In this document: positions 29,145-59,780 of the stretch, in pieces
How the letters are laid out: every line of letters begins with the position of its first letter
Numbering within the stretch: the stretch's first letter is position 1
Assembly (NCBI GenBank): GCA_003971905.1
Contig: RSEE01000005.1
Coordinates: forward strand, 1-64,000
From: Moniliella sp. 'wahieum'
Lineage: Eukaryota
Direction: 5' to 3'
DNA length: 64,000 nucleotides
Program-made: the position numbers and the translations under genes
The notes under the pieces: generated by a model
Databases searched by the model: none
Seen by the model: only the letters and a program-made list of their open reading frames with translations
What the model was told of the DNA's origin: nothing

Positions 29145-29540
29145 GGTCAAGGTGGCAGTGGTGGTTGGGGTGGTTGGGGTGGCTGGGATAGTTGTTGGGA
29201 TGTTGGGGATGCTGGGGGGGGAGCTGGGTGCTGGGAGTGATGCGGTTGGGTTAATCAGAGGTTTTGAGGAGGGGCGGGAAAAAAAAGTGGGAGCGTATGT
29301 AGCGAGCAGCGGGGCGGAAGGATCGGTGCAAAGGGCGGATTGAATATTGAATTGAGTGCTCGAGCTCTGGTGATTTTTATTAGGGCCGGCGCCGTTGCAC
29401 TGACCTGCATTGGGTTGGAGATGCTGGTTTGGGTTTGTGTCCAGGATTTGGGGAACTAGCAACCACCTGCCCCGACCTACCCGCTGGACACAGGACACAG
29501 GGCACGGGACGCTTGCAGCGCAAGGGCAGACGACTCGACC

Positions 29541-30940
29541 ATGGCCACCAGCACGACGGGGACGTTTAGGATACATCTTTCGACGCCCGACGATGTATCC
29601 CTCGCGTCGTACAACTACCTTTCGGGCCAGGCCCTGCCGGACGAAGAGGCCGACATGGACGTCGACCGGGACGAGCTGTTGGACGAGGCGGAGGATGGAG
29701 AAGGCGAGGCCAAGGCCGACGAGCGCGTGGCGATGATGCATGCCAAAGTGGCCACGGCTGGTGAACATGTAGCGTCATCGGCAACCTATATGCGGGGACA
29801 TGGGACATACTTGGCACCTCCCCCTGGTGCTCGTGCATCGGGCCAACAAGATGCTCATGCGGAGGCTATGGCGGTTGACGTGGACGATGGCGCGGACCCG
29901 TCGCGCCCTGAAGATGAAGAGGGTGAAGAGGTGGTGAACCTGATTTACTCTTCCCTTGCTGGTCCAGTGATTTGGACAAACAAATTAGTGTCGGTCCGGG
30001 CGCTCAGGGCACGCTATGCGCCCGAGGTGGGCGATTTGGTTGTTGGTCGTGTGGTGGAAGTGCAACCTGGAAGCAAACGGTGGAAGGTGGATATCAATGG
30101 CCGGTCTGAAGCCTCTCTCTTGCTCAGTAGCATCAATTTGCCCGGGGGCGTGCAACGCAAGAAACTCGAGTCGGATGAACTGCAAATGCGTGCATTCTTC
30201 AAGGAAGGCGACCTGCTCGTGGCCGAAGTCCAGGCGGTGAACCACGACGGCAGTGTTATCCTCCACACCCGTAGCCTTCGGTACGGCAAGCTACGCAACG
30301 GACTTCTGGTGGCAGTTCAACCGCAGCTGATCCAACGGCTCAAGTCGCATTTTGTCACCCTCTCCAAGGCCCAGGTCGACCTAGTAGTCGGCATGAACGG
30401 ATACACTTGGGTCGCGAAGCACATTGCGTTCGATATGGATCAAGCCGAAGCTGAGGGAAAGCCTACCGAAGAACCCCTGGTCATGTGCAGGAGGCTGAAG
30501 GCCTCGGGGGGCGTGGGATCGGATTTGACATTGATGCCGGAGACGGCGTGTACGGCGACCAAAACGAGGTGAGTACTAGCCAACATCTTCTCATCCCCCA
30601 ATGGAGGTACTGACGTTTTTTATTGTGTAGTATACCCCCCCTGAGCAACGGGTGGCGATCGCTCAAGTGGCTCAACTCCTCGTCTTACTCTCCGATCGCC
30701 ACATTCCATTTCAGAAACGATCGTTGAGCGAGCCTATGAACTGTGGACAAACCAATTTGCTTCGCGCAAGTCCACGGGGGCAGTAGGACAAGCCGCATTT
30801 TACGACCCTGCGGCCAATGCGGCATCCCAACGGAGGGATACGCTTTTGGCTGCCGCACGGGAAGCCGAAGCGTTGGCTACTGGTCCAAAGGGCGATGAGT
30901 TGGTCCAAGGTCTTATCGGTCTGGCGTGCTGCGTGCATAA
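29541..30940 (+). CDS. RRP4: RNA exosome cap subunit Rrp4
   Basis: YMRGHGTY, RYAPEVGDLVVGRV, WKVDI, LLSSINLPGGVQRKK..DELQMRAFFKEGDLLVAEVQ, LHTRSLRYGKLRNG, VGMNGYTW. Intron 30569-30630. Confidence 0.95.
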
Positions 30941-31053: not shown

Positions 31054-33400
31054 TCATGGCTCTGTCCGTACTGTTCGCCGGGCCGTTGCGGTGCCAATCT
31101 GAGTCGCATTGACCTTGGTAGCAAAGCGAAGCGAACAGAGTGTTTCGTTCTGGTGCTCGGCCAAGGGGGAGAGGTTGAGTAGCATGAGGCTTCAAGGGAG
31201 AAGAAAGGGAAATGGTTAGCTGCCGTCTTCTTCAAGCGGACGCATGGGGAAGAGAAACGCACGTCTTTGAGTTGCCTCCGAGCGAGTTCTTAAGCAGCCA
31301 AGTGAGCGTCGAATTGCGGTACGGCACATGCTGCTCGGCCTTGGCGGAGCGAGAACCTGCTTTACCCAGCGCTGCAATCACGTCACCTAAGGCCGAGAGA
31401 GACTTGTTGATGCTCTGGGCTTCGCGTAGGCGCGCTGGATCGTCAGCCGAGCCCGAGTTGGACAGACGCTCTGAGCCTGCCAGGTCAACCAGGTTCAGTA
31501 CCGCTTCCGTCTTTTCTCCCGTAGCCTCATTGTGGCCTACCACGGCCAAGGTAAATACACTGTGGGAGCGCGAAGAGCGGGCGTTCATGGCGGTAGCGGC
31601 GACTTGCCGCTTAGCCTGGGCTCTTGCCAAAAGGGTCATCACCTGGTCTGGGTTATGCAGTGCCACCTCTTCGGCCCCCACGACAATTGTACGCCCGCCC
31701 TGGCTGTCGTGGCGGATTTCGTGTCGCCCCATAGCCGAAGCTGGGTCGTCGGAGGTTGAGGAAAGAAGATCAATAATGCCATCAAGATAGATCTCGACCA
31801 TCTGGCCCGAAAATGTGTATTGCCATCCTCGGGCTCTGAGCTGATCGGCCACCGACCACAGCATCTGCACCGTTCGGGGAATAAGACCAGCTGATGGATC
31901 GGAGAGAGTAGAACTTGTAGGCGAGCCAGAGCGAGGAGGACCTTCGAGTGTGTACGTCTTGCCACTGCCCGTCTGGCCATAAGCAAAGATGCAAGTATTG
32001 TACCCGTCCAACACGCTCTGGGCCAGGTGTTCTACCTCGCCAAAAATCAGTCTGGGAGGCATGCGGGGGCAGGACCCGATCAAAGCGAAGGAATGGAGGA
32101 CATTGGTGGGCGTACCGCTCGCACTTTCCCCCACGATGGCCACCTGCAACTCCCGCTTCCCGTGGGAAAGGCTCCGGATAGCGTATGTCCGCCATGGTGC
32201 GGTCCCCCGCGCCATTCTGGCTGCCGGCATTAACCGCTGGTCGAACGCGAGCGACAACTCGAATGTTGCCCCGGAGCTCTTGGACTTGATTGTGAAGCTT
32301 GCGTCGCAATCGCTCAGCTGCTCTCAGCTCCTCCTCTTTAGCCTGGACCAGACACTCTACCTCAGCCAATTGCGAGCGGAGGGAGGAGACCAACTGACGC
32401 TCATGGTCCACTTCGTCCCGCAGAGCGTCCGCCTGGGTCCGTAGCACACCCACTTGGGTCTCAAGTGCCAAGTGGCCTGCGGTTTGCTCAGCCAACGCAG
32501 ATTGGAGAGTAGAAATCGTCTGCCGCTCTCGCTCCAACGCAGAGGCAGAGTCGGAACGAACACGGTCCAACTGGGCAGACCAATCGTCGCGGTCGCGCCG
32601 ATGAGTGTCACGAAGTGCATCAAGCTGTGCCTGTAGCTGGATCTCACTGACGCTTGGCCCGGATACCGAGGGGATGCGGATCCCCATTGGGCTTTGAGCT
32701 GGGCAAGCTCCTCCTCGTGCCGTTGTCGGTCCTCCTCAAACCGGGCAATGAGGCCTTGCACTTGCCCCTCGAGGGCATCAACGCGGTTTCCTCCTCGAGC
32801 ACTGGGAGGTGGTGCAGCAGTGCTAGCAGCCCTCAGGCTGGTGGCGGCCGAAGCCGAGACTGAGCGGGAAGTAGCGGTGGGGCGTTTGGTGGGGCGGCTG
32901 GAAGAATGGGTGGCTAAAGGCTCTCGCCGGGGCCGAGACCGCGGCTGGCCTGAGTGCTGCTGCTGACGGTGCGGGTGGATTTCGTTTTGGGTTGCGGCTG
33001 AGCCTTGGTGGACGCGGCGGGTCGGACGGGGTTGGTACGGCGCGGGGTGCGGGCAGGGGCGGGAGCGGGAATGCCCGTGGCAGCTGCTGGATGCGATGGC
33101 ACGGGGAGACGCGAGCCGCCAGGCATCATCCTCGACTTGCTTGACTTGCTCGACTCGACGCACTCAAGTAGGCTGCGTTGATCGACTTGATGGCCGTGAT
33201 GGCCTTGCGGGGATTGGCCTGGACGATGCGCACGAGACCCAACACGATGTGGGGGCACTTTCTCAGGCCCAGCCCATGTTGCTTGCCTCGACGCGGAAAT
33301 TGCAGGGCGCGCCGCAGGTCACGTGCCGGGTGTCTCCAGCTCTTCATTGGTTACGTCATCTCGGCTGCTCCTAGCGTGGTCGAGGCGGAGGAACTAAGCA
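31054..33400 (-). CDS. KAR3: C-terminal-motor kinesin-14 (Kar3-like)
   Basis: Coiled coil, then RRKLHNQVQELRGNIRVVARVRP, FAYGQTGSGKTYT, SSRSHSVF, DLAGSER, HVPYRNSTLTWLL..SLGGNSKT, intron 31190-31262, then LMLLNLSP..ETLCSLRFATKVN. The start codon is not resolved. Confidence 0.9.
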
Positions 33401-39823: not shown

Positions 39824-40804
39824 GTTTTCTGGAGTTGCGGTGGCCATATTGCTGGGGTGCGGCAAGTGCCTGAACTACCTTGGTCTAGTCGTAGTACCCT
39901 GTTGATACATAATCCGCAATACCTTCTTCATCCCTTCATCGATTGCTAATCTGGCGAAGCACCTTCTCAACTATGTGGAGGGCGCCACCAGAGATATCCT
40001 TTTGGATGGTTACGCGTTACGCCCCTCGCAGGCGAGCGTCACCTATCAACTTGGGGCCGCTACGGTGCAGGGGACCTAGCACTAACGGGCCCAAGGATTT
40101 CTATTGACGCTGACAGCCCAATTGGAGGGCAGCCAAATTGCTACCCAGGATGCTTCAGCGAACCTTTTTGGCATAGCATTGCTGTTATTTCTGCCTATGC
40201 AGCCAGTTGCGTACAGGGGGGAACATCATTCTCGCGACGCGTTTCATACCATAGCGCGCTTCGTAATGAAAAAGGGCTAAGAGCACGCGGCTGGACGAGA
40301 AGTGGAGTCGACAAATAGAAACATTGCCATCAAATGTTCATTTCAAATTTAAGTTTAGGGTTGGTCGTCGATTTGTCCACGGCGCAATAAAATGCCGGCG
40401 CATGGGGGAGCCAGTGCCATGCGGGCTCTTTGCTGCGGCCGTGACGGCCAATGGGACAGGGACAGTGCCTTGTTCTCAGTGCAGTACTGCGCTCGCTTTG
40501 CCGGATGTCGGTTGTCTGCTTTCGCAAGCCGACTTCGCGGTTTGCTATCCACCACACCAAGCGATCTGAGGTGAGTCCCAACTTGAGTCGACTCTGGGGC
40601 AGATGAGAGGGAATTGCGTCTCTGGCTACATGGATCCAAGATGGGTGTGCGGCTACGCTTGTCCTGACCCCCTACCTCGGTCCAGGGGTTGCCCTAGCCA
40701 AGGACGGCGGCTTCGATGCCCCTCTCGCAACTTCTTCTGACCGCTTGTTGGGATCTTGACGTACTAATGCGCTGTCATCTCCTTTTCATTCCAGGTCTTT
40801 CGAG

Positions 40805-41270
40805 ATGCAGATCTTCGTCAACTCTGTCCAGGGCAAACCCTGACCCTGGCTGTGGCCCCCGAGGCTACCGTCGAGTCGATCAAGGCTCTCAACTTTGCGC
40901 GTGACGGCATCCCCGCCGCGGAGCAGCGCCTGCTCTACGGTGGCAAGCAGCTCGCCGATGGCCGCACCCTCGCCGACTACGGCATTCAGAAGGACTCGAC
41001 GCTGCACATGTCGCTGAGGTATGTTTGATCCCAACCTACAAGGGACGGACGATGGTGTCTTAGATGTACTGACGGAACTTGGCGTTGTATCTCTGTAGCC
41101 TTCTCGGTGGTATCATTGAGCCCTCGCTCAAGGTGCTCGCCTCTAAGACCAACGTTGAGAAGCAGATCTGCCGCAAGTGCTACGCTCGTCTTCCTCCCCG
41201 TGCGACCAACTGCCGGAAGCGCAAGTGCGGCCACTCGTCGCAGCTGCGCAAGAAGAAGGTCCTTAAGTAA
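40805..41270 (+). CDS. RPL40: Ubiquitin-like-60S ribosomal protein eL40 fusion with divergent ubiquitin moiety
   Basis: Exon 40805-41018, intron 41019-41098, then [54 protein letters not shown]. Probable 5' UTR intron 40571-40794. One base is missing near 40835. Confidence 0.95.
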
Positions 41271-41579
41271 ATGCGACCCCGCTTAGATCTGTCTGGTCTC
41301 TGCCTTTGTCCACTCCCTGGATATTGGTGGAGGCCGACGCCAAAAGATAGGGCCATTGGGGGAGGGTTTTCCTACCCCATTTTGACGTGCTAGGCTTGGG
41401 CACTGTCAAGGACAGTCAGCGCTTGCGCTGGCATGATCATTTTGCTCTCCCTGGCCTTGTTGTCAAGCCACCTTTTCAGTCCCTATGCATGCGCTCCCTA
41501 GCGTGTCTTCATGCATGCTTCTTAACTCATCGGCAAAGACTTGCATAGCGTTGCCCGACAGTTTATGGGACAATCAAGC

Positions 41580-56610: not shown

Positions 56611-58081
56611 GGCGCGCGCGCCCTGCAAGCGGAACTCTTCCGCCCGGTTAAGTGAGCGTCGCCGATCCATCGAGGGCCGTGCAGGGGAACCCCAGTACTA
56701 CCCTCCAACAGAAGCAAGCGAAGACTGCGAAGGCACTAAGAATGTCATCCGATAGCACTTCCTCGTCGAAAATGCTGGTAACAAGGTTCCGGATAGATAT
56801 GTGAGGACTACGTACAAAATTCAAGGTGATGGGCAAGGCCCACAAGATTGTGCACAAGAAATTTCGATTAGCTATGAGGCTAATACCGGCACCACTATAC
56901 GCCAGTGTGGCGTCCCAGTTTCCATTCCTGGCGGAGTGTGGGAATGGTCTGTGCTCGTTCTATGGGGAGCCATTGATCTCGATTGATTTCCCCTTTCTTC
57001 GTTGTGTTGCCTATGCCTTATTGATCCAGCCCATGGTAGTGCCCACGGTGTCTTTGCCCACAGAGTACCAACTGGTGGTCAAAACAATGGTGGCGGCTTC
57101 TCCAGCCTGTGTTCACATGTTCACACTCGACGGCGATTCGAAGGACGATGTCGGTGTGCCTGAGGGCGAGCTGACGGTGGGCGACCAGATCCACATTGAC
57201 TTGGATGATAAAAGGCAAAGATTTAGTGTTGGTTCCCATTGTGTCGTCCATGGGAGAGGAGTCGCGTCAAGCTTCAGCAGGAACACGACTATATCCGCTT
57301 TGGGTGCTTGTGTAAACAATCTCTATTTCCACAACACAGACGCAACGGTACTTACGTCATGCTTACCTATTTGTTTGCGCGGGCGGAATGCACCCCACCC
57401 CGCGCGCTCAGCCATGCACATGCACATGGGTGATAAATTCCTCCAGCGTGGAACAGTGGCTACGGTGGCGACGGTGCACCAAGCACCAAGCTGGGGCGAA
57501 GCCCCAGCTGACCGGGCCGTAGGCCCGGTGGTCTTCTAGTAACTGGTAAACTAAGACTGAGGAGGCGGCGGGACGTGGGCGACTGCGTGAAAGAAGGGTT
57601 AATCGATAACCGATGATCGATGAGATCGATGAGATCTGAGACCGCCGCTGGTGGCCGGTGGGCGCTCAGGCTGAGCGCTGAGCCTCAGCGCTGAGCTGCG
57701 GTGGCTGCTTGGATCCGGTGGCGGACACTTGCCGGATGCGTGGCGGGCGGGATGCTGGGGTTGCAATGGTTTAGGTTCTGACCTGGCTAGTCTGAGATCT
57801 GCGGAGGGCCTGACTGGCGGACTAGTGGAGTGGCCAGTGCTAGTGCCAGTGCTAGTGCTCATGACTAGCACTTGTGACTGCGTCACCGGGTCACCAGCGA
57901 CTAGCTGATTGTTGACAACGTTCACACTAATCCCGCTGGCTGGCTGCTGGCCCGGCGGGGGCGCATGAAAAAGCCACCGCCCGCGTCGTCCCTTGCTTCG
58001 CCCAGTGGATAAAGAGGGCGCAGGTCCTCCCCCCCCCCTCTCCCCATCCATCCTGCGCCCCCTCCGCCCCAGCCCACGGAC

Positions 58082-59780
58082 ATGCCACCTCAGACCCTGC
58101 GATCCAGCTTCTTCCCTACCCCCGTGTTGCCCCGTGGCAATCTGGTCGCCACGCTGCACAGCAACCCCAACGGCGCCCCAGACTCGGCCCCGGCCTTTAT
58201 CCGCGCCTCGGATGGCAAGGTGCTCACGCGCGGCGAAGTGATCCACACCTCTTACCGCTTTGCCCATGCATTGGTGCACAAGCTCAACCTTGCCCCGGGG
58301 ATACTGTCGCGCTTGTTGCGGGCAACTCGACGTTGTACCCGGTGATTGTGCATGCCTGCCTCGCTGCGGGCGTGGTGGTGGTGCCGCTCAATGCAGCGTA
58401 TACCTCTGACGAGCTTTCCCACCCCTTTGCCGACGCTGCGGTCAAGTACGTCTTGGTCCAGCCGCAGGATGCATCGGTCGTAGCTGTGCGTACAGCCCTG
58501 GAGAAGATCGGCCACCCACGCGCCAATGCACCAGACACGGTCTGGCTCCTGTCCGACGATGATGTGTTGGCTCAGGGGGCAGGCGGTGAAAAGGATTTAC
58601 GCACCCTGTTGGGTCAAGAGGAGCTTGTACCCATTCCCATTCGCGATCCGGAAAACACACCTGCCTTCATCGCCTATTCGTCGGGAACGACGGGCCGGTC
58701 CAAAGGCGCAATCCTGAGCCATACCAATATGACGTCGTGCTGTGTTTACATGACGGAGATCACCAAGCTCTTCCTCTCGGCTGGAACGATGACCATGGCT
58801 TTCTTCCGATGCAACATGTGTTTTGCCTCACATTCCATGTGCACCACACCTTTTACATTGGTGCGCCGTGTGTCGTGCTCGATTCGTTTTCGCTGGCCAA
58901 GTTTTGTTCGGCCATTCAACAGTTCAAGGTGGAGTGGACCTCGGTTGCTCCTCCCATCCTCCTCCTCCTGGCCAAGAGTCCCGATGTGGAGAAGTACGAC
59001 CTTCGCTCCCTTGTTGCAGTGCAATCGGGTGCGGCGCCACTCTCGTCGGCACTCGTGTCCGAGGTCGAAAAGCGCTTTCCCCATCTCAAGATTGCCAATG
59101 GTTACGGGTTGACCGAAGCCAGTCCCTTGGTCTGCATGGACGACCCCAAAGTTAGTGCAGCGCATGGGAACCGAGGCAGCGCCAACCGTTTGATCCCTGG
59201 GCTGGAAGTGCGCCTGGTGAATGAGGAAGGGAAGGATGTGGGACTGACCGAGGGCGAAGGTCCTGATGGAGCGACGTTATCGGGCGAAGTATGGTTGCGT
59301 GGACCCACGATCTTCCGAGGGTACCTGAATAATGACCAGGCCAATGCCGAATCGTTCGCTGCCGAAGGGTGGTACCGCACCGGCGACCTCGGGTCCTTCC
59401 GCCAAGGTCGGCTGACAATCGAGGAGCGGCTCAAGCAAGTAATCAAAGTGGGCGGAAGGCAAGTGGCCCCGTCGGAGCTGGAGGCGATTCTGCTCACGCA
59501 TCCCAAAGTCGCAGATGCAGCGGTGGTGCCCTTGTACGTGGAGGAAAAGTCGGACGAGTACCCATTGGCGTACATTGTGGTCAAGCCCGAGTTCAAGGGA
59601 GACAAGAGCGTGCCGGAGGATGTACGCGCATACGTGGATGGCAAGGTGGTGTATTACAAGCGCCTTAGGGGAGGCGTGCGCATCATCGATGCCATCCCCA
59701 AGTCCCCGTCGGGCAAGATTCTGCATCGCATCCTCCGGGACCAGCTCAAGGCAGAGCAGGCTCCCAAGGCTAAACTTTAG
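58082..59780 (+). CDS. 4-coumarate-CoA ligase-like / luciferase-like acyl-CoA synthetase with PTS1
   Basis: YSSGTTGRSKG, SGAAPL, GYGLTE, GEVWLRGPTIFRGY, WYRTGD, QVAPSELEAILLTHP, IPKSPSGKIL. C-terminal AKL*. Confidence 0.95.

What the first reader, a model, noticed from the sequence alone, without database searches (positions are those of the whole stretch)
40805..41113. Ubiquitin moiety of the eL40 fusion has drifted to about 54% identity and lost the LRLRGG tail (FUBI-like)
Seen: after restoring one base, the moiety reads [76 protein letters not shown]. My manual count is 41/76 identical to yeast ubiquitin, while the eL40 part stays conserved. R72 becomes S and R74 becomes L, the hydrophobic patch changes (L8V, I44L, V70S), and K6, K29 and K33 are lost. 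K11, K27, K48, K63 and the diGly are kept. Established: ubiquitin is normally nearly invariant, R72 is a key E1 selectivity residue, and metazoan FUBI-eS30 is a precedent for a diverged ribosomal UBL leader. Inference: this is either a non-conjugated folding leader needing a dedicated protease or a lineage-specific modifier. About 35 substitutions cannot be explained by indel-type assembly error.
Basis: partly seen in the sequence, partly recalled or inferred. Interest (0 to 1): 0.82.

Follow-up and report, generated by a model that had tools for sequence, protein, structure and literature searches.

The report
Diverged ubiquitin leader on fungal eL40
A smut-related fungus makes ribosomal protein eL40 behind a ubiquitin copy that has drifted to about half identity yet is still kept by selection, a rare but already known kind of escape from ubiquitin's usual invariance.

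Summary
Spliced (intron 41019-41098) and read across a one-base frame break at 40835-40837, the gene encodes a 76-residue ubiquitin-type domain plus a 52-residue eL40. eL40 is 46 of 52 identical.

The frame break is probably an assembly error. Related contigs in two public runs carry an extra base there, and two other conserved genes in the window have intron-free frame breaks.

The diverged domain looks functional:
- Relatives keep the derived tail STLHMSLSLL through 7 of 7 synonymous changes.
- Their contigs lack the intron.
- GC3 is 0.83 in both halves against 0.60-0.69 in four other genes.

Neighbouring RRP4 places the window in Ustilaginomycotina. Five other members have canonical Ub-eL40.

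Best reading: a cleavable cis-acting leader for eL40 that has left the ubiquitin pool. Conjugation and a second canonical copy could not be tested, because no genome is held.

It is not unique. Seven of 69 full-length fusions in one list are under 80% identical to ubiquitin, including Microsporum canis and Synchytrium. This scan noted the same pattern in microsporidia. Papers describe it for Giardia and Plasmodium.

The parts
40571..40794 (+). Putative 5'-UTR intron (GTGAGT ... TACTAAT branch-like site at 40762-40768 ... CAG)
   Evidence: Read from the sequence; inferred only. One related contig of run X5 starts at 40793, and another has 14 unlike letters before 40804.
40805..40837 (+). Codons 1-11 of the ubiquitin-like moiety (first frame), ending in the AAA of the frame break
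40835..40837 (+). Frame break: one base missing. Relatives have G (run X5, 2 contigs) or T (run X2, 1 contig) put in behind 40836.
   Evidence: table 4. AAA here is the only A-ending codon of 75 counted, and the other three Lys codons of the moiety are AAG by my reading. The lost base is therefore probably the G of AAG (inference).
40837..41018 (+). Codons 12 to 72 (first two bases of 72) of the ubiquitin-like moiety (second frame)
   Evidence: P0001. PF00240 E=2.8e-19.
41019..41098 (+). Intron, 80 nt, GT..AG
   Evidence: Sequence. Run X5 contig record 16 skips exactly these 80 bases ('skips 80 GT..AG, cut +2'). Three further X5 contigs join the same exons (tables 5, 5c, 8).
41099..41111 (+). 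End of the ubiquitin-like moiety: third base of S72, then L73, L74, G75, G76
41112..41269 (+). Ribosomal protein eL40, 52 codons; stop codon TAA follows at 41270-41272
   Evidence: P0002. PF01020 E=9.9e-29. 46 of 52 identical to the eL40 of P0162.

Best explanation
This is the working Ub-eL40 (UBA52/UBI1-type) precursor gene of a fungus of the Ustilaginomycotina. Its ubiquitin-coding part has escaped the forces that normally keep it identical to ubiquitin, namely selection for ubiquitin supply and gene conversion with the other ubiquitin loci.

Proposed mechanism:
- The domain now evolves as a private ubiquitin-fold leader.
- It is translated in front of eL40 and helps eL40 to be produced in cis.
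- It is cut off after Gly-Gly by a deubiquitinase, so that eL40 can enter the 60S subunit.
- The released 76-residue protein no longer feeds the ubiquitin pool, because it has lost R72 and R74 and part of the hydrophobic patch.

The one-base frame break in the window is an assembly error.

Shown here: the sequence, the splice, conservation in relatives, the codon bias, and canonical Ub-eL40 in other Ustilaginomycotina. Inferred: cleavage, the chaperone role, loss of conjugation, and that canonical ubiquitin comes from other loci.
For: 1. Identity and substitutions: 41 of 76, including R72S, R74L, L8V, I44L, V70S, K6N, K29L and K33R. L71, L73 and G75-G76 are kept.

2. Frame break. A 151-nt contig of run X2 covers 40765-40914 with 3 other letters and has an extra T behind 40836. 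Two contigs of run X5 have an extra G there (tables 4, 8). Intron-free frame switches also occur inside a kinesin motor, at a T5 run near 32045, and inside an AMP-binding gene at 58740-58797. The assembly is therefore indel-prone.

3. Purifying selection on the derived sequence.
- One X5 contig encodes STLHMSLSLL, as the window does, with 7 nucleotide differences in 30, all synonymous.
- Two further X5 contigs encode SLSLL and SLLG through different codons.
- Of the 15 differences that one search lists between 40830 and 40986, 10 are synonymous. Of the 9 between 40841 and 40932, 7 are synonymous (my reading); mean depth in X5 there is 35-40, against about 300 at 40934-40995.
- Fifty-three further differences were not shown.

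4. Four X5 contigs of 329-363 nt join the two exons without the intron. This is most simply read as spliced transcripts.

5. Codon bias: GC3 0.83 and A3 0.01 in the moiety, 0.83 and 0.00 in eL40. Four other genes in the window have GC3 0.60-0.69 and A3 0.12-0.22.

6. Lineage. Neighbouring RRP4 is 65% identical to Tilletiaria anomala, followed by Violaceomyces, Malassezia and Tilletia. Moesziomyces, Sporisorium, Parajaminaea, Pseudozyma and Malassezia have canonical ubiquitin on eL40, so the change is lineage-specific.

7. Canonical-type ubiquitin contigs are present in X5. Depth rises to about 300 over 40934-40995, with I44 and A46 letters.

8. Established background: the Ub moiety of yeast Ubi1 acts as a cis-acting aid to eL40 production, and uncleaved Ubi1 harms 60S function (PMC8122580, passages read).
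Against: - No reads of the window's own assembly could be laid, so a genuine recent frameshift in this strain is not excluded.
- The extra base differs between X2 (T, giving N11, depth 2) and X5 (G, giving K11).
- No genome is held. A second, canonical Ub-eL40 gene, and the presence of polyubiquitin and Ub-eS31, are untested for this organism.
- One X5 contig (record 21, depth 4.5 of 52.7) carries the canonical Y and C letters in eL40. It could be such a second copy, or it could come from another organism.
- Run X5 is of unrecorded kind ('?'). The intron-less contigs could be DNA of intron-less homologues.
- The X5 contigs are 82-86% identical to the window in the moiety. They restore I44 and A46, so the relatives are less diverged at the hydrophobic patch.
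- K11, K27, K48, K63 and Gly-Gly are kept, so conjugation is not ruled out.
- eL40 itself has two unusual changes (KYNC to KTNV), as a relaxed paralogue might.
Confidence: 0.6

Rival explanations
1. It is a second, diverging paralogue. The genome also has a canonical Ub-eL40 gene that supplies most eL40 and ubiquitin, and this copy is a specialised or partly redundant eL40 gene with a relaxed leader.
For: - eL40 here has changes at positions that are otherwise constant in the hits I read (KYNC to KTNV).
- One canonical-type eL40 contig is present in run X5.
- Both a diverged (Biscogniauxia marginata) and a canonical-type (Hypoxylon cercidicola) Ub-eL40 occur among the listed hits. I recall both genera as Xylariales; no call tested that.
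Against: - In X5 the contigs with the window-type T and V letters hold about 48 of 52.7 depth units at those sites, and the canonical type holds 4.5.
- Codon bias is as strong as expected for a main ribosomal-protein gene.
- I recall that fungi without whole-genome duplication usually have one Ub-eL40 gene; this was not tested.
Confidence: 0.27
2. The released moiety is a new lineage-specific modifier. It is conjugated to targets through Gly-Gly by an E1 that tolerates or prefers S72/L74, comparably to NEDD8 or to the conjugation recently claimed for FUBI.
For: - Gly-Gly, K11, K27, K48 and K63 are kept.
- The derived tail is itself under purifying selection, which a mere spacer would not need.
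- A 2025 preprint claims FUBI conjugation (10.1101/2025.07.06.663376; search listing and start of abstract only).
Against: - No E1 or E2 candidate could be looked for without a genome.
- Tail conservation is equally explained by protease recognition.
- R72 is known as a main determinant of recognition by the ubiquitin E1 (recalled, not tested).
Confidence: 0.08
3. It is a pseudogene: the frame break is real and the ubiquitin part is decaying.
For: The window sequence as given has a premature TGA at 40841.
Against: - Relatives have an intact frame at that very site.
- 7 of 7 changes in the tail are synonymous.
- eL40 is intact.
- The splice sites are intact.
- Codon bias is strong.
- Other conserved genes in the window have similar frame breaks.
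Confidence: 0.05

Closest known systems
Canonical Ub-eL40 precursor (yeast UBI1/UBI2, human UBA52)
   Same: - Same architecture: a 76-residue ubiquitin-fold domain ending in Gly-Gly, directly followed by a 52-residue eL40 that starts with IIEPSL.
- The same kind of gene in the same subphylum has canonical ubiquitin.
   Different: - The ubiquitin part is only 41 of 76 identical.
- The tail is LSLLGG instead of LRLRGG.
- K6, K29 and K33 are lost.
- L8V, I44L and V70S are present.
Diverged UbL40-encoded ubiquitin of Plasmodium (Vivax and Ovale lineages) and Giardia lamblia (PMC10457151)
   Same: Same phenomenon: the ubiquitin of the eL40 fusion gene escapes conservation within a lineage while eL40 stays conserved (passages read).
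   Different: - The Plasmodium forms differ at 14.5-30.3% of sites and keep all seven lysines and a near-intact hydrophobic patch, as the paper states.
- Here 46% of sites differ, three lysines are lost, and R72 and R74 are lost.
- The host here is a basidiomycete fungus.
FUBI-eS30 (FAU) of holozoans
   Same: A ubiquitin-like leader with limited identity to ubiquitin, a retained C-terminal Gly-Gly, fusion to a ribosomal protein, and removal before or during subunit maturation (PMC8122580 passage; PMC8354635 abstract).
   Different: - FUBI is fused to eS30, not eL40.
- It is an old, separate family.
- It lacks the lysines used for chains, as stated in PMC8122580, whereas four are kept here.
- Its proteases USP36 and USP16 are known (abstracts); none is known here.
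Diverged ubiquitin on eL40 in other fungi: Microsporum canis, Synchytrium microbalum and S. endobioticum, Pleurostoma richardsiae, Biscogniauxia marginata, and microsporidia
   Same: Annotated Ub-eL40 proteins whose ubiquitin part is 54-70% identical to canonical, with eL40 conserved. Microsporidia are known from this scan's earlier notes e1-599994 and e1-619212, not from a test here.
   Different: - The window's moiety is no closer to any of them (36-41 identical residues) than to canonical ubiquitin (41). These are independent divergences.
- Four of them keep R74 and three keep R72 (read from the tails printed); Microsporum has LDLPGG.
UBL-1/UbS27a-type diverged ubiquitin on eS31 (Caenorhabditis, Apicomplexa, Cryptococcus neoformans and others)
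   Same: Escape of a fusion-encoded ubiquitin from conservation. Catic and Ploegh interpreted it as failure to recombine with the other ubiquitin loci (as reported in PMC10457151 and its supplement).
   Different: The other ribosomal partner (eS31). This is common there, whereas the eL40 fusion was thought to diverge very rarely.

Membership tests
Ub-eL40 fusion precursor (UBA52/UBI1 type) | N-terminal ubiquitin-family domain (PF00240) | tested here: met
   P0001: PF00240 E=2.8e-19, 69.1 bits against a cut-off of 25.4.
Ub-eL40 fusion precursor (UBA52/UBI1 type) | C-terminal eL40 (PF01020), 52 residues, directly after Gly-Gly | tested here: met
   P0002: PF01020 E=9.9e-29. The junction reads [10 protein letters not shown].
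Ub-eL40 fusion precursor (UBA52/UBI1 type) | One continuous reading frame | tested here: inconclusive
   The window has a one-base break at 40835-37. Related contigs in runs X2 and X5 have the extra base. The strain's own reads are not available.
Ub-eL40 fusion precursor (UBA52/UBI1 type) | Cleavage after G76 by deubiquitinases | not testable with these tools
   Only the retention of L71, L73, G75 and G76 is seen.
Ubiquitin proper (conjugatable, pool-forming) | Near-invariant sequence with an LRLRGG tail including R72 | tested here: not met
   41 of 76 identical; tail LSLLGG; R72S and R74L.
Ubiquitin proper (conjugatable, pool-forming) | Hydrophobic patch L8/I44/V70 and seven lysines | tested here: not met
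   L8V, I44L and V70S are present. K6, K29 and K33 are lost. K11, K27, K48 and K63 are kept.
Ubiquitin proper (conjugatable, pool-forming) | Activation by the ubiquitin E1 and conjugation to substrates | not testable with these tools
   Needs biochemistry.
FUBI (FAU-encoded UBL) | Fusion to ribosomal protein eS30 | tested here: not met
   The partner is eL40 (PF01020). The resemblance is functional only.
FUBI (FAU-encoded UBL) | Sequence kinship with FUBI rather than with ubiquitin | tested here: not met
   All 60 best PDB matches shown are ubiquitin or engineered ubiquitin, and none is FUBI.

The most novel reading that the evidence does not exclude
In this basidiomycete lineage the eL40-linked ubiquitin has become a separate ubiquitin-like protein under its own selection. 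It is made in ribosomal-protein amounts and released by cleavage. It is either inert towards Uba1 or used by a dedicated conjugation or recognition system. It is also one of at least five independent escapes of this kind in fungi, which would make UbL40 divergence a recurrent evolutionary route to new UBLs rather than a curiosity of parasites.
Probability: 0.12. Interest if true: 0.75.

Novelty: new member of a known kind. Interest (0 to 1): 0.42.

Why it matters
Ubiquitin is the textbook example of an almost invariant protein. The eL40 fusion gene is one of its main sources in growing cells.

A free-living or plant-associated basidiomycete has let this copy drift to 54% identity while keeping it under selection. 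Ubiquitin identity is therefore not needed for the eL40-leader role, and this supports the view that the fusion copies are kept identical by demand for ubiquitin supply or by gene conversion.

Together with the other fungal cases seen in passing, it suggests such escapes are more frequent than the papers I could search report (Giardia and two Plasmodium lineages). It also offers a natural variant for asking which ubiquitin residues matter for precursor processing and which for E1 activation.

It does not open a new kind of system.

Tried and rejected
- Whole-genome search: no genome is held for this window, so other ubiquitin and eL40 loci could not be sought.
- The search of protein representatives with the 61-residue piece: the 150 best were polyubiquitins ranked by summed score, 33-57% identical. 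Useless for finding orthologues.
- The search for homologous proteins with P0001, longer proteins: 7 hits among 215 candidates, none above 61% identity, so no orthologue. This search also missed P0161, so it is not exhaustive.
- Metagenome scan: the 80 loci kept of 450 confirmed were all 52-59% identical (canonical type).
- The look-up of sequencing runs: no RNA holder listed, and no run with half the words or more. The strain's own reads were not found.
- Parts of the stretch without cover are no evidence.
- ESM Atlas: only generic ubiquitin-family clusters.
- The search of earlier findings by place: nothing on this genome. By sequence: an unrelated bacterial ubiquitin.
- Structure prediction was not run.
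- Considered and rejected: that the PF01020-only proteins of 110-218 residues carry novel leaders. Their sequences look like gene models that read through introns.
- Considered and rejected: kinship of the window's moiety with the 74-residue diverged forms (P0184, P0202, P0213), despite shared TVES.KAL and LLGG motifs. Pairwise identities are no higher than to canonical ubiquitin.

Full report
**What is in the sequence**

The + strand between 40805 and 41272 holds a two-exon gene of fungal type.
- From the ATG at 40805, frame 1 reads eleven codons ([11 protein letters not shown]) and then runs into TGA at 40841.
- A second frame is open from 40837 and reads 61 residues of a ubiquitin-family domain (P0001; PF00240 E=2.8e-19).
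- The last codon of the first frame (AAA, 40835-37) and the first codon of the second (ACC, 40837-39) share one base, so exactly one base is missing.
- Exon 1 ends at 41018 in front of GTATGT. The intron is 41019-41098 (80 nt, ending TAG). Exon 2 begins at 41099.
- The split codon AG|C is Ser, followed by Leu-Leu-Gly-Gly (to 41111).
- A 52-codon eL40 follows (41112-41269; PF01020 E=9.9e-29), then TAA.
- There is no other ubiquitin-like stretch in the 64 kb window.

I spliced the gene by coordinates in a script. I compared it with the canonical 76-residue ubiquitin contained in a database protein (P0162, residues 9-84).
- The moiety is 41 of 76 identical.
- K11, K27, K48, K63 and G75-G76 are retained, and so are L71 and L73.
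- eL40 is 46 of 52 identical to that of P0162.

Only the end coordinate is 2 nt too far.

**The frame break**

No genome is held for this window, and no public run holds more than 12% of the sampled words. The strain's own reads could therefore not be examined.

Laying the contigs of four coded runs at 80% likeness was still informative.
- In run X2 (a metagenome), one 151-nt contig covers 40765-40914 with only 3 other letters. It has a T put in behind 40836.
- In run X5, two contigs have a G put in at the same place.
- So the closest sequences available have an intact frame at exactly this site.

Two other conserved genes in the window also change frame with no room for an intron.
- A kinesin motor changes frame at a T5 run near 32045. 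Frame a reads ..FLRFDRVLPPHASQTDF and frame b reads [31 protein letters not shown].
- An AMP-binding enzyme changes frame between 58740 and 58797.

The AAA at the break is the only A-ending codon among the 75 counted in the moiety. The other three lysine codons of the moiety are AAG by my reading of the sequence. The lost base is therefore probably the G of AAG, as in X5; this is inference.

I conclude that the break is most likely an assembly error. A real, very recent mutation is not excluded.

**Is the diverged moiety functional?**

Three lines of evidence say yes.

(i) Relatives conserve the derived sequence.
- Four X5 contigs (records 16-19; 161-224 aligned bases, 25-33 other letters each) are of the diverged type.
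- The loose end of a further contig encodes STLHMSLSLL, identical to the window. It has 7 nucleotide differences in 30, all synonymous.
- The letters between the joints of two other contigs encode SLSLL and SLLG through other codons.
- Of the 15 differences that one search lists between 40830 and 40986, 10 are synonymous.
- Of the 9 between 40841 and 40932, 7 are synonymous (my reading). Mean depth in X5 there is 35-40, against about 300 at 40934-40995.
- Fifty-three more differences were not shown, so this is a partial count.

(ii) These contigs join exon 1 to exon 2 without the intron, and one does so with the exact 80-base GT..AG skip. The simplest reading is spliced mRNA. The run's kind is not on record, so intron-less genomic homologues are a possible alternative.

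(iii) Codon bias.
- The moiety has GC3 0.83 and A3 0.01.
- eL40 has GC3 0.83 and A3 0.00.
- Four other genes in the window have GC3 0.60-0.69 and A3 0.12-0.22.
- A decaying sequence would not keep the codon bias of a highly expressed ribosomal-protein gene.

Points against a simple picture:
- The X5 relatives have the canonical letters at I44 and A46. The window is therefore more derived than they are.
- One minor X5 contig (depth 4.5 of 52.7) has canonical Y and C in eL40 where the window has T and V. It could be a canonical paralogue or another organism.

**Which organism, and how wide is the change?**

- The RRP4 gene at 29460-30572 is 65% identical to that of Tilletiaria anomala. Violaceomyces, Malassezia and Tilletia follow.
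- The window is therefore from the Ustilaginomycotina, with no close named relative in the database.
- The Ub-eL40 proteins of Moesziomyces, Sporisorium, Parajaminaea, Pseudozyma and Malassezia have canonical ubiquitin where their gene models are complete.
- So the divergence arose within a narrower lineage.
- No orthologue with the same diverged sequence was found in the protein databases or in JGI metagenome contigs. None of those searches was exhaustive.

**How unusual is it?**

In the papers I could search:
- A diverged ubiquitin encoded by the eL40 fusion gene is described only for Giardia and for two Plasmodium lineages, at 14.5-30.3% of sites. It is called previously "extremely rare".
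- Diverged ubiquitin on eS31 is common, including in Cryptococcus neoformans (PMC10457151: passages of the main text, and places in the supplement found by term search).
- Searches for fungal or basidiomycete cases found nothing further.

The protein list tells another story.
- Of its 120 listed eL40 relatives, 69 have at least 70 alignable ubiquitin columns directly before eL40.
- Seven of these 69 are under 80% identical to canonical ubiquitin.
- The seven are Microsporum canis (54%, tail LDLPGG), Synchytrium microbalum and S. endobioticum (61% and 59%), Pleurostoma richardsiae (62%), Biscogniauxia marginata (70%), and two metagenome proteins (72% and 57%).
- The window's moiety shares 36-41 residues with each of these and 41 with canonical ubiquitin. 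It is an independent divergence.
- Earlier notes of this scan describe the same pattern in the microsporidian Encephalitozoon (e1-599994 and e1-619212; not tested here).

The finding is thus a further, rather extreme member of a recurring but under-described phenomenon.

**Mechanism**

Established work in yeast shows three things (PMC8122580, passages):
- The ubiquitin moiety of Ubi1 raises eL40 production in cis.
- SUMO can partly replace it.
- It must be cleaved off, because uncleaved Ubi1 disturbs 60S maturation and elongation.

A ubiquitin-fold domain with a Gly-Gly junction is all that this role needs, and that is what has been kept here.

R72 is known as a main determinant for the ubiquitin E1; this is recalled and not tested here. 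Its replacement, together with R74L and V70S, makes it likely that the released protein no longer joins the ubiquitin pool. The pool would then be fed by polyubiquitin and Ub-eS31 genes. Canonical-type ubiquitin contigs are abundant in X5, but for the window's own genome this is untested.

I commit to the reading "private, cleaved leader of eL40" at 0.6. The rivals are:
- a diverging paralogue beside a canonical copy, 0.27;
- a new conjugated modifier, 0.08;
- a pseudogene, 0.05.

**Verdict**

The finding is real and well observed. It is functionally constrained and lineage-specific. In kind it matches FUBI-eS30, UBL-1-eS31 and the diverged UbL40 forms of Giardia and Plasmodium, and comparable fungal cases already sit unremarked in public annotation. 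It is of moderate interest and is a new member of a known kind.

Noticed in passing
window 32030-32065 (- strand), within the kinesin ORFs 31232-32323 and 31782-32735: A kinesin motor domain changes reading frame at a T5 run with no room for an intron (..HASQTDF / [31 protein letters not shown]). It looks like a one-base assembly indel.
   Followed up: partly
window 58740-58797 (+ strand), ORFs 57931-59112 and 58590-59780: An AMP-binding enzyme gene switches frame at Pfam profile position 210 within about 20 bases, with no intron. This is a second probable indel error.
   Followed up: partly
database proteins P0270, P0210, P0225, P0184, P0213, P0161, P0202 (one search list): Seven of 69 full-length Ub-eL40 proteins in one hit list have ubiquitin parts only 54-72% identical to canonical. 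They include Microsporum canis, two Synchytrium species, Pleurostoma richardsiae and Biscogniauxia marginata. Three of them, and P0205, share a two-residue deletion near residues 7-10. Divergence of the eL40-linked ubiquitin seems recurrent in fungi, but it is not described in the papers I could search.
   Followed up: partly
window 41145-41161 (eL40 codons 12-17): eL40 reads KTNVEK where every other eL40 sequence I read has K[YF]NC[DE]K or, in one, KYNQEK. Most related X5 contigs keep the T and V letters, so the change is typical of the lineage.
   Followed up: partly
database proteins P0183, P0186, P0189, P0190, P0194, P0201, P0204, P0206, P0248 and others: Many basidiomycete 'eL40-only' proteins of 110-218 residues look like faulty gene models that translate intron sequence in front of ..[11 protein letters not shown], not like new leaders.
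   Followed up: no
window 40571-40794: A probable 224-nt intron in the 5' untranslated region (GTGAGT .. TACTAAT .. CAG), ending 10 nt before the ATG.
   Followed up: no
window 29460-30572: An RRP4 exosome subunit gene. The best named relative is only 65% identical (Tilletiaria anomala), so the organism has no close named relative in the protein database used.
   Followed up: yes
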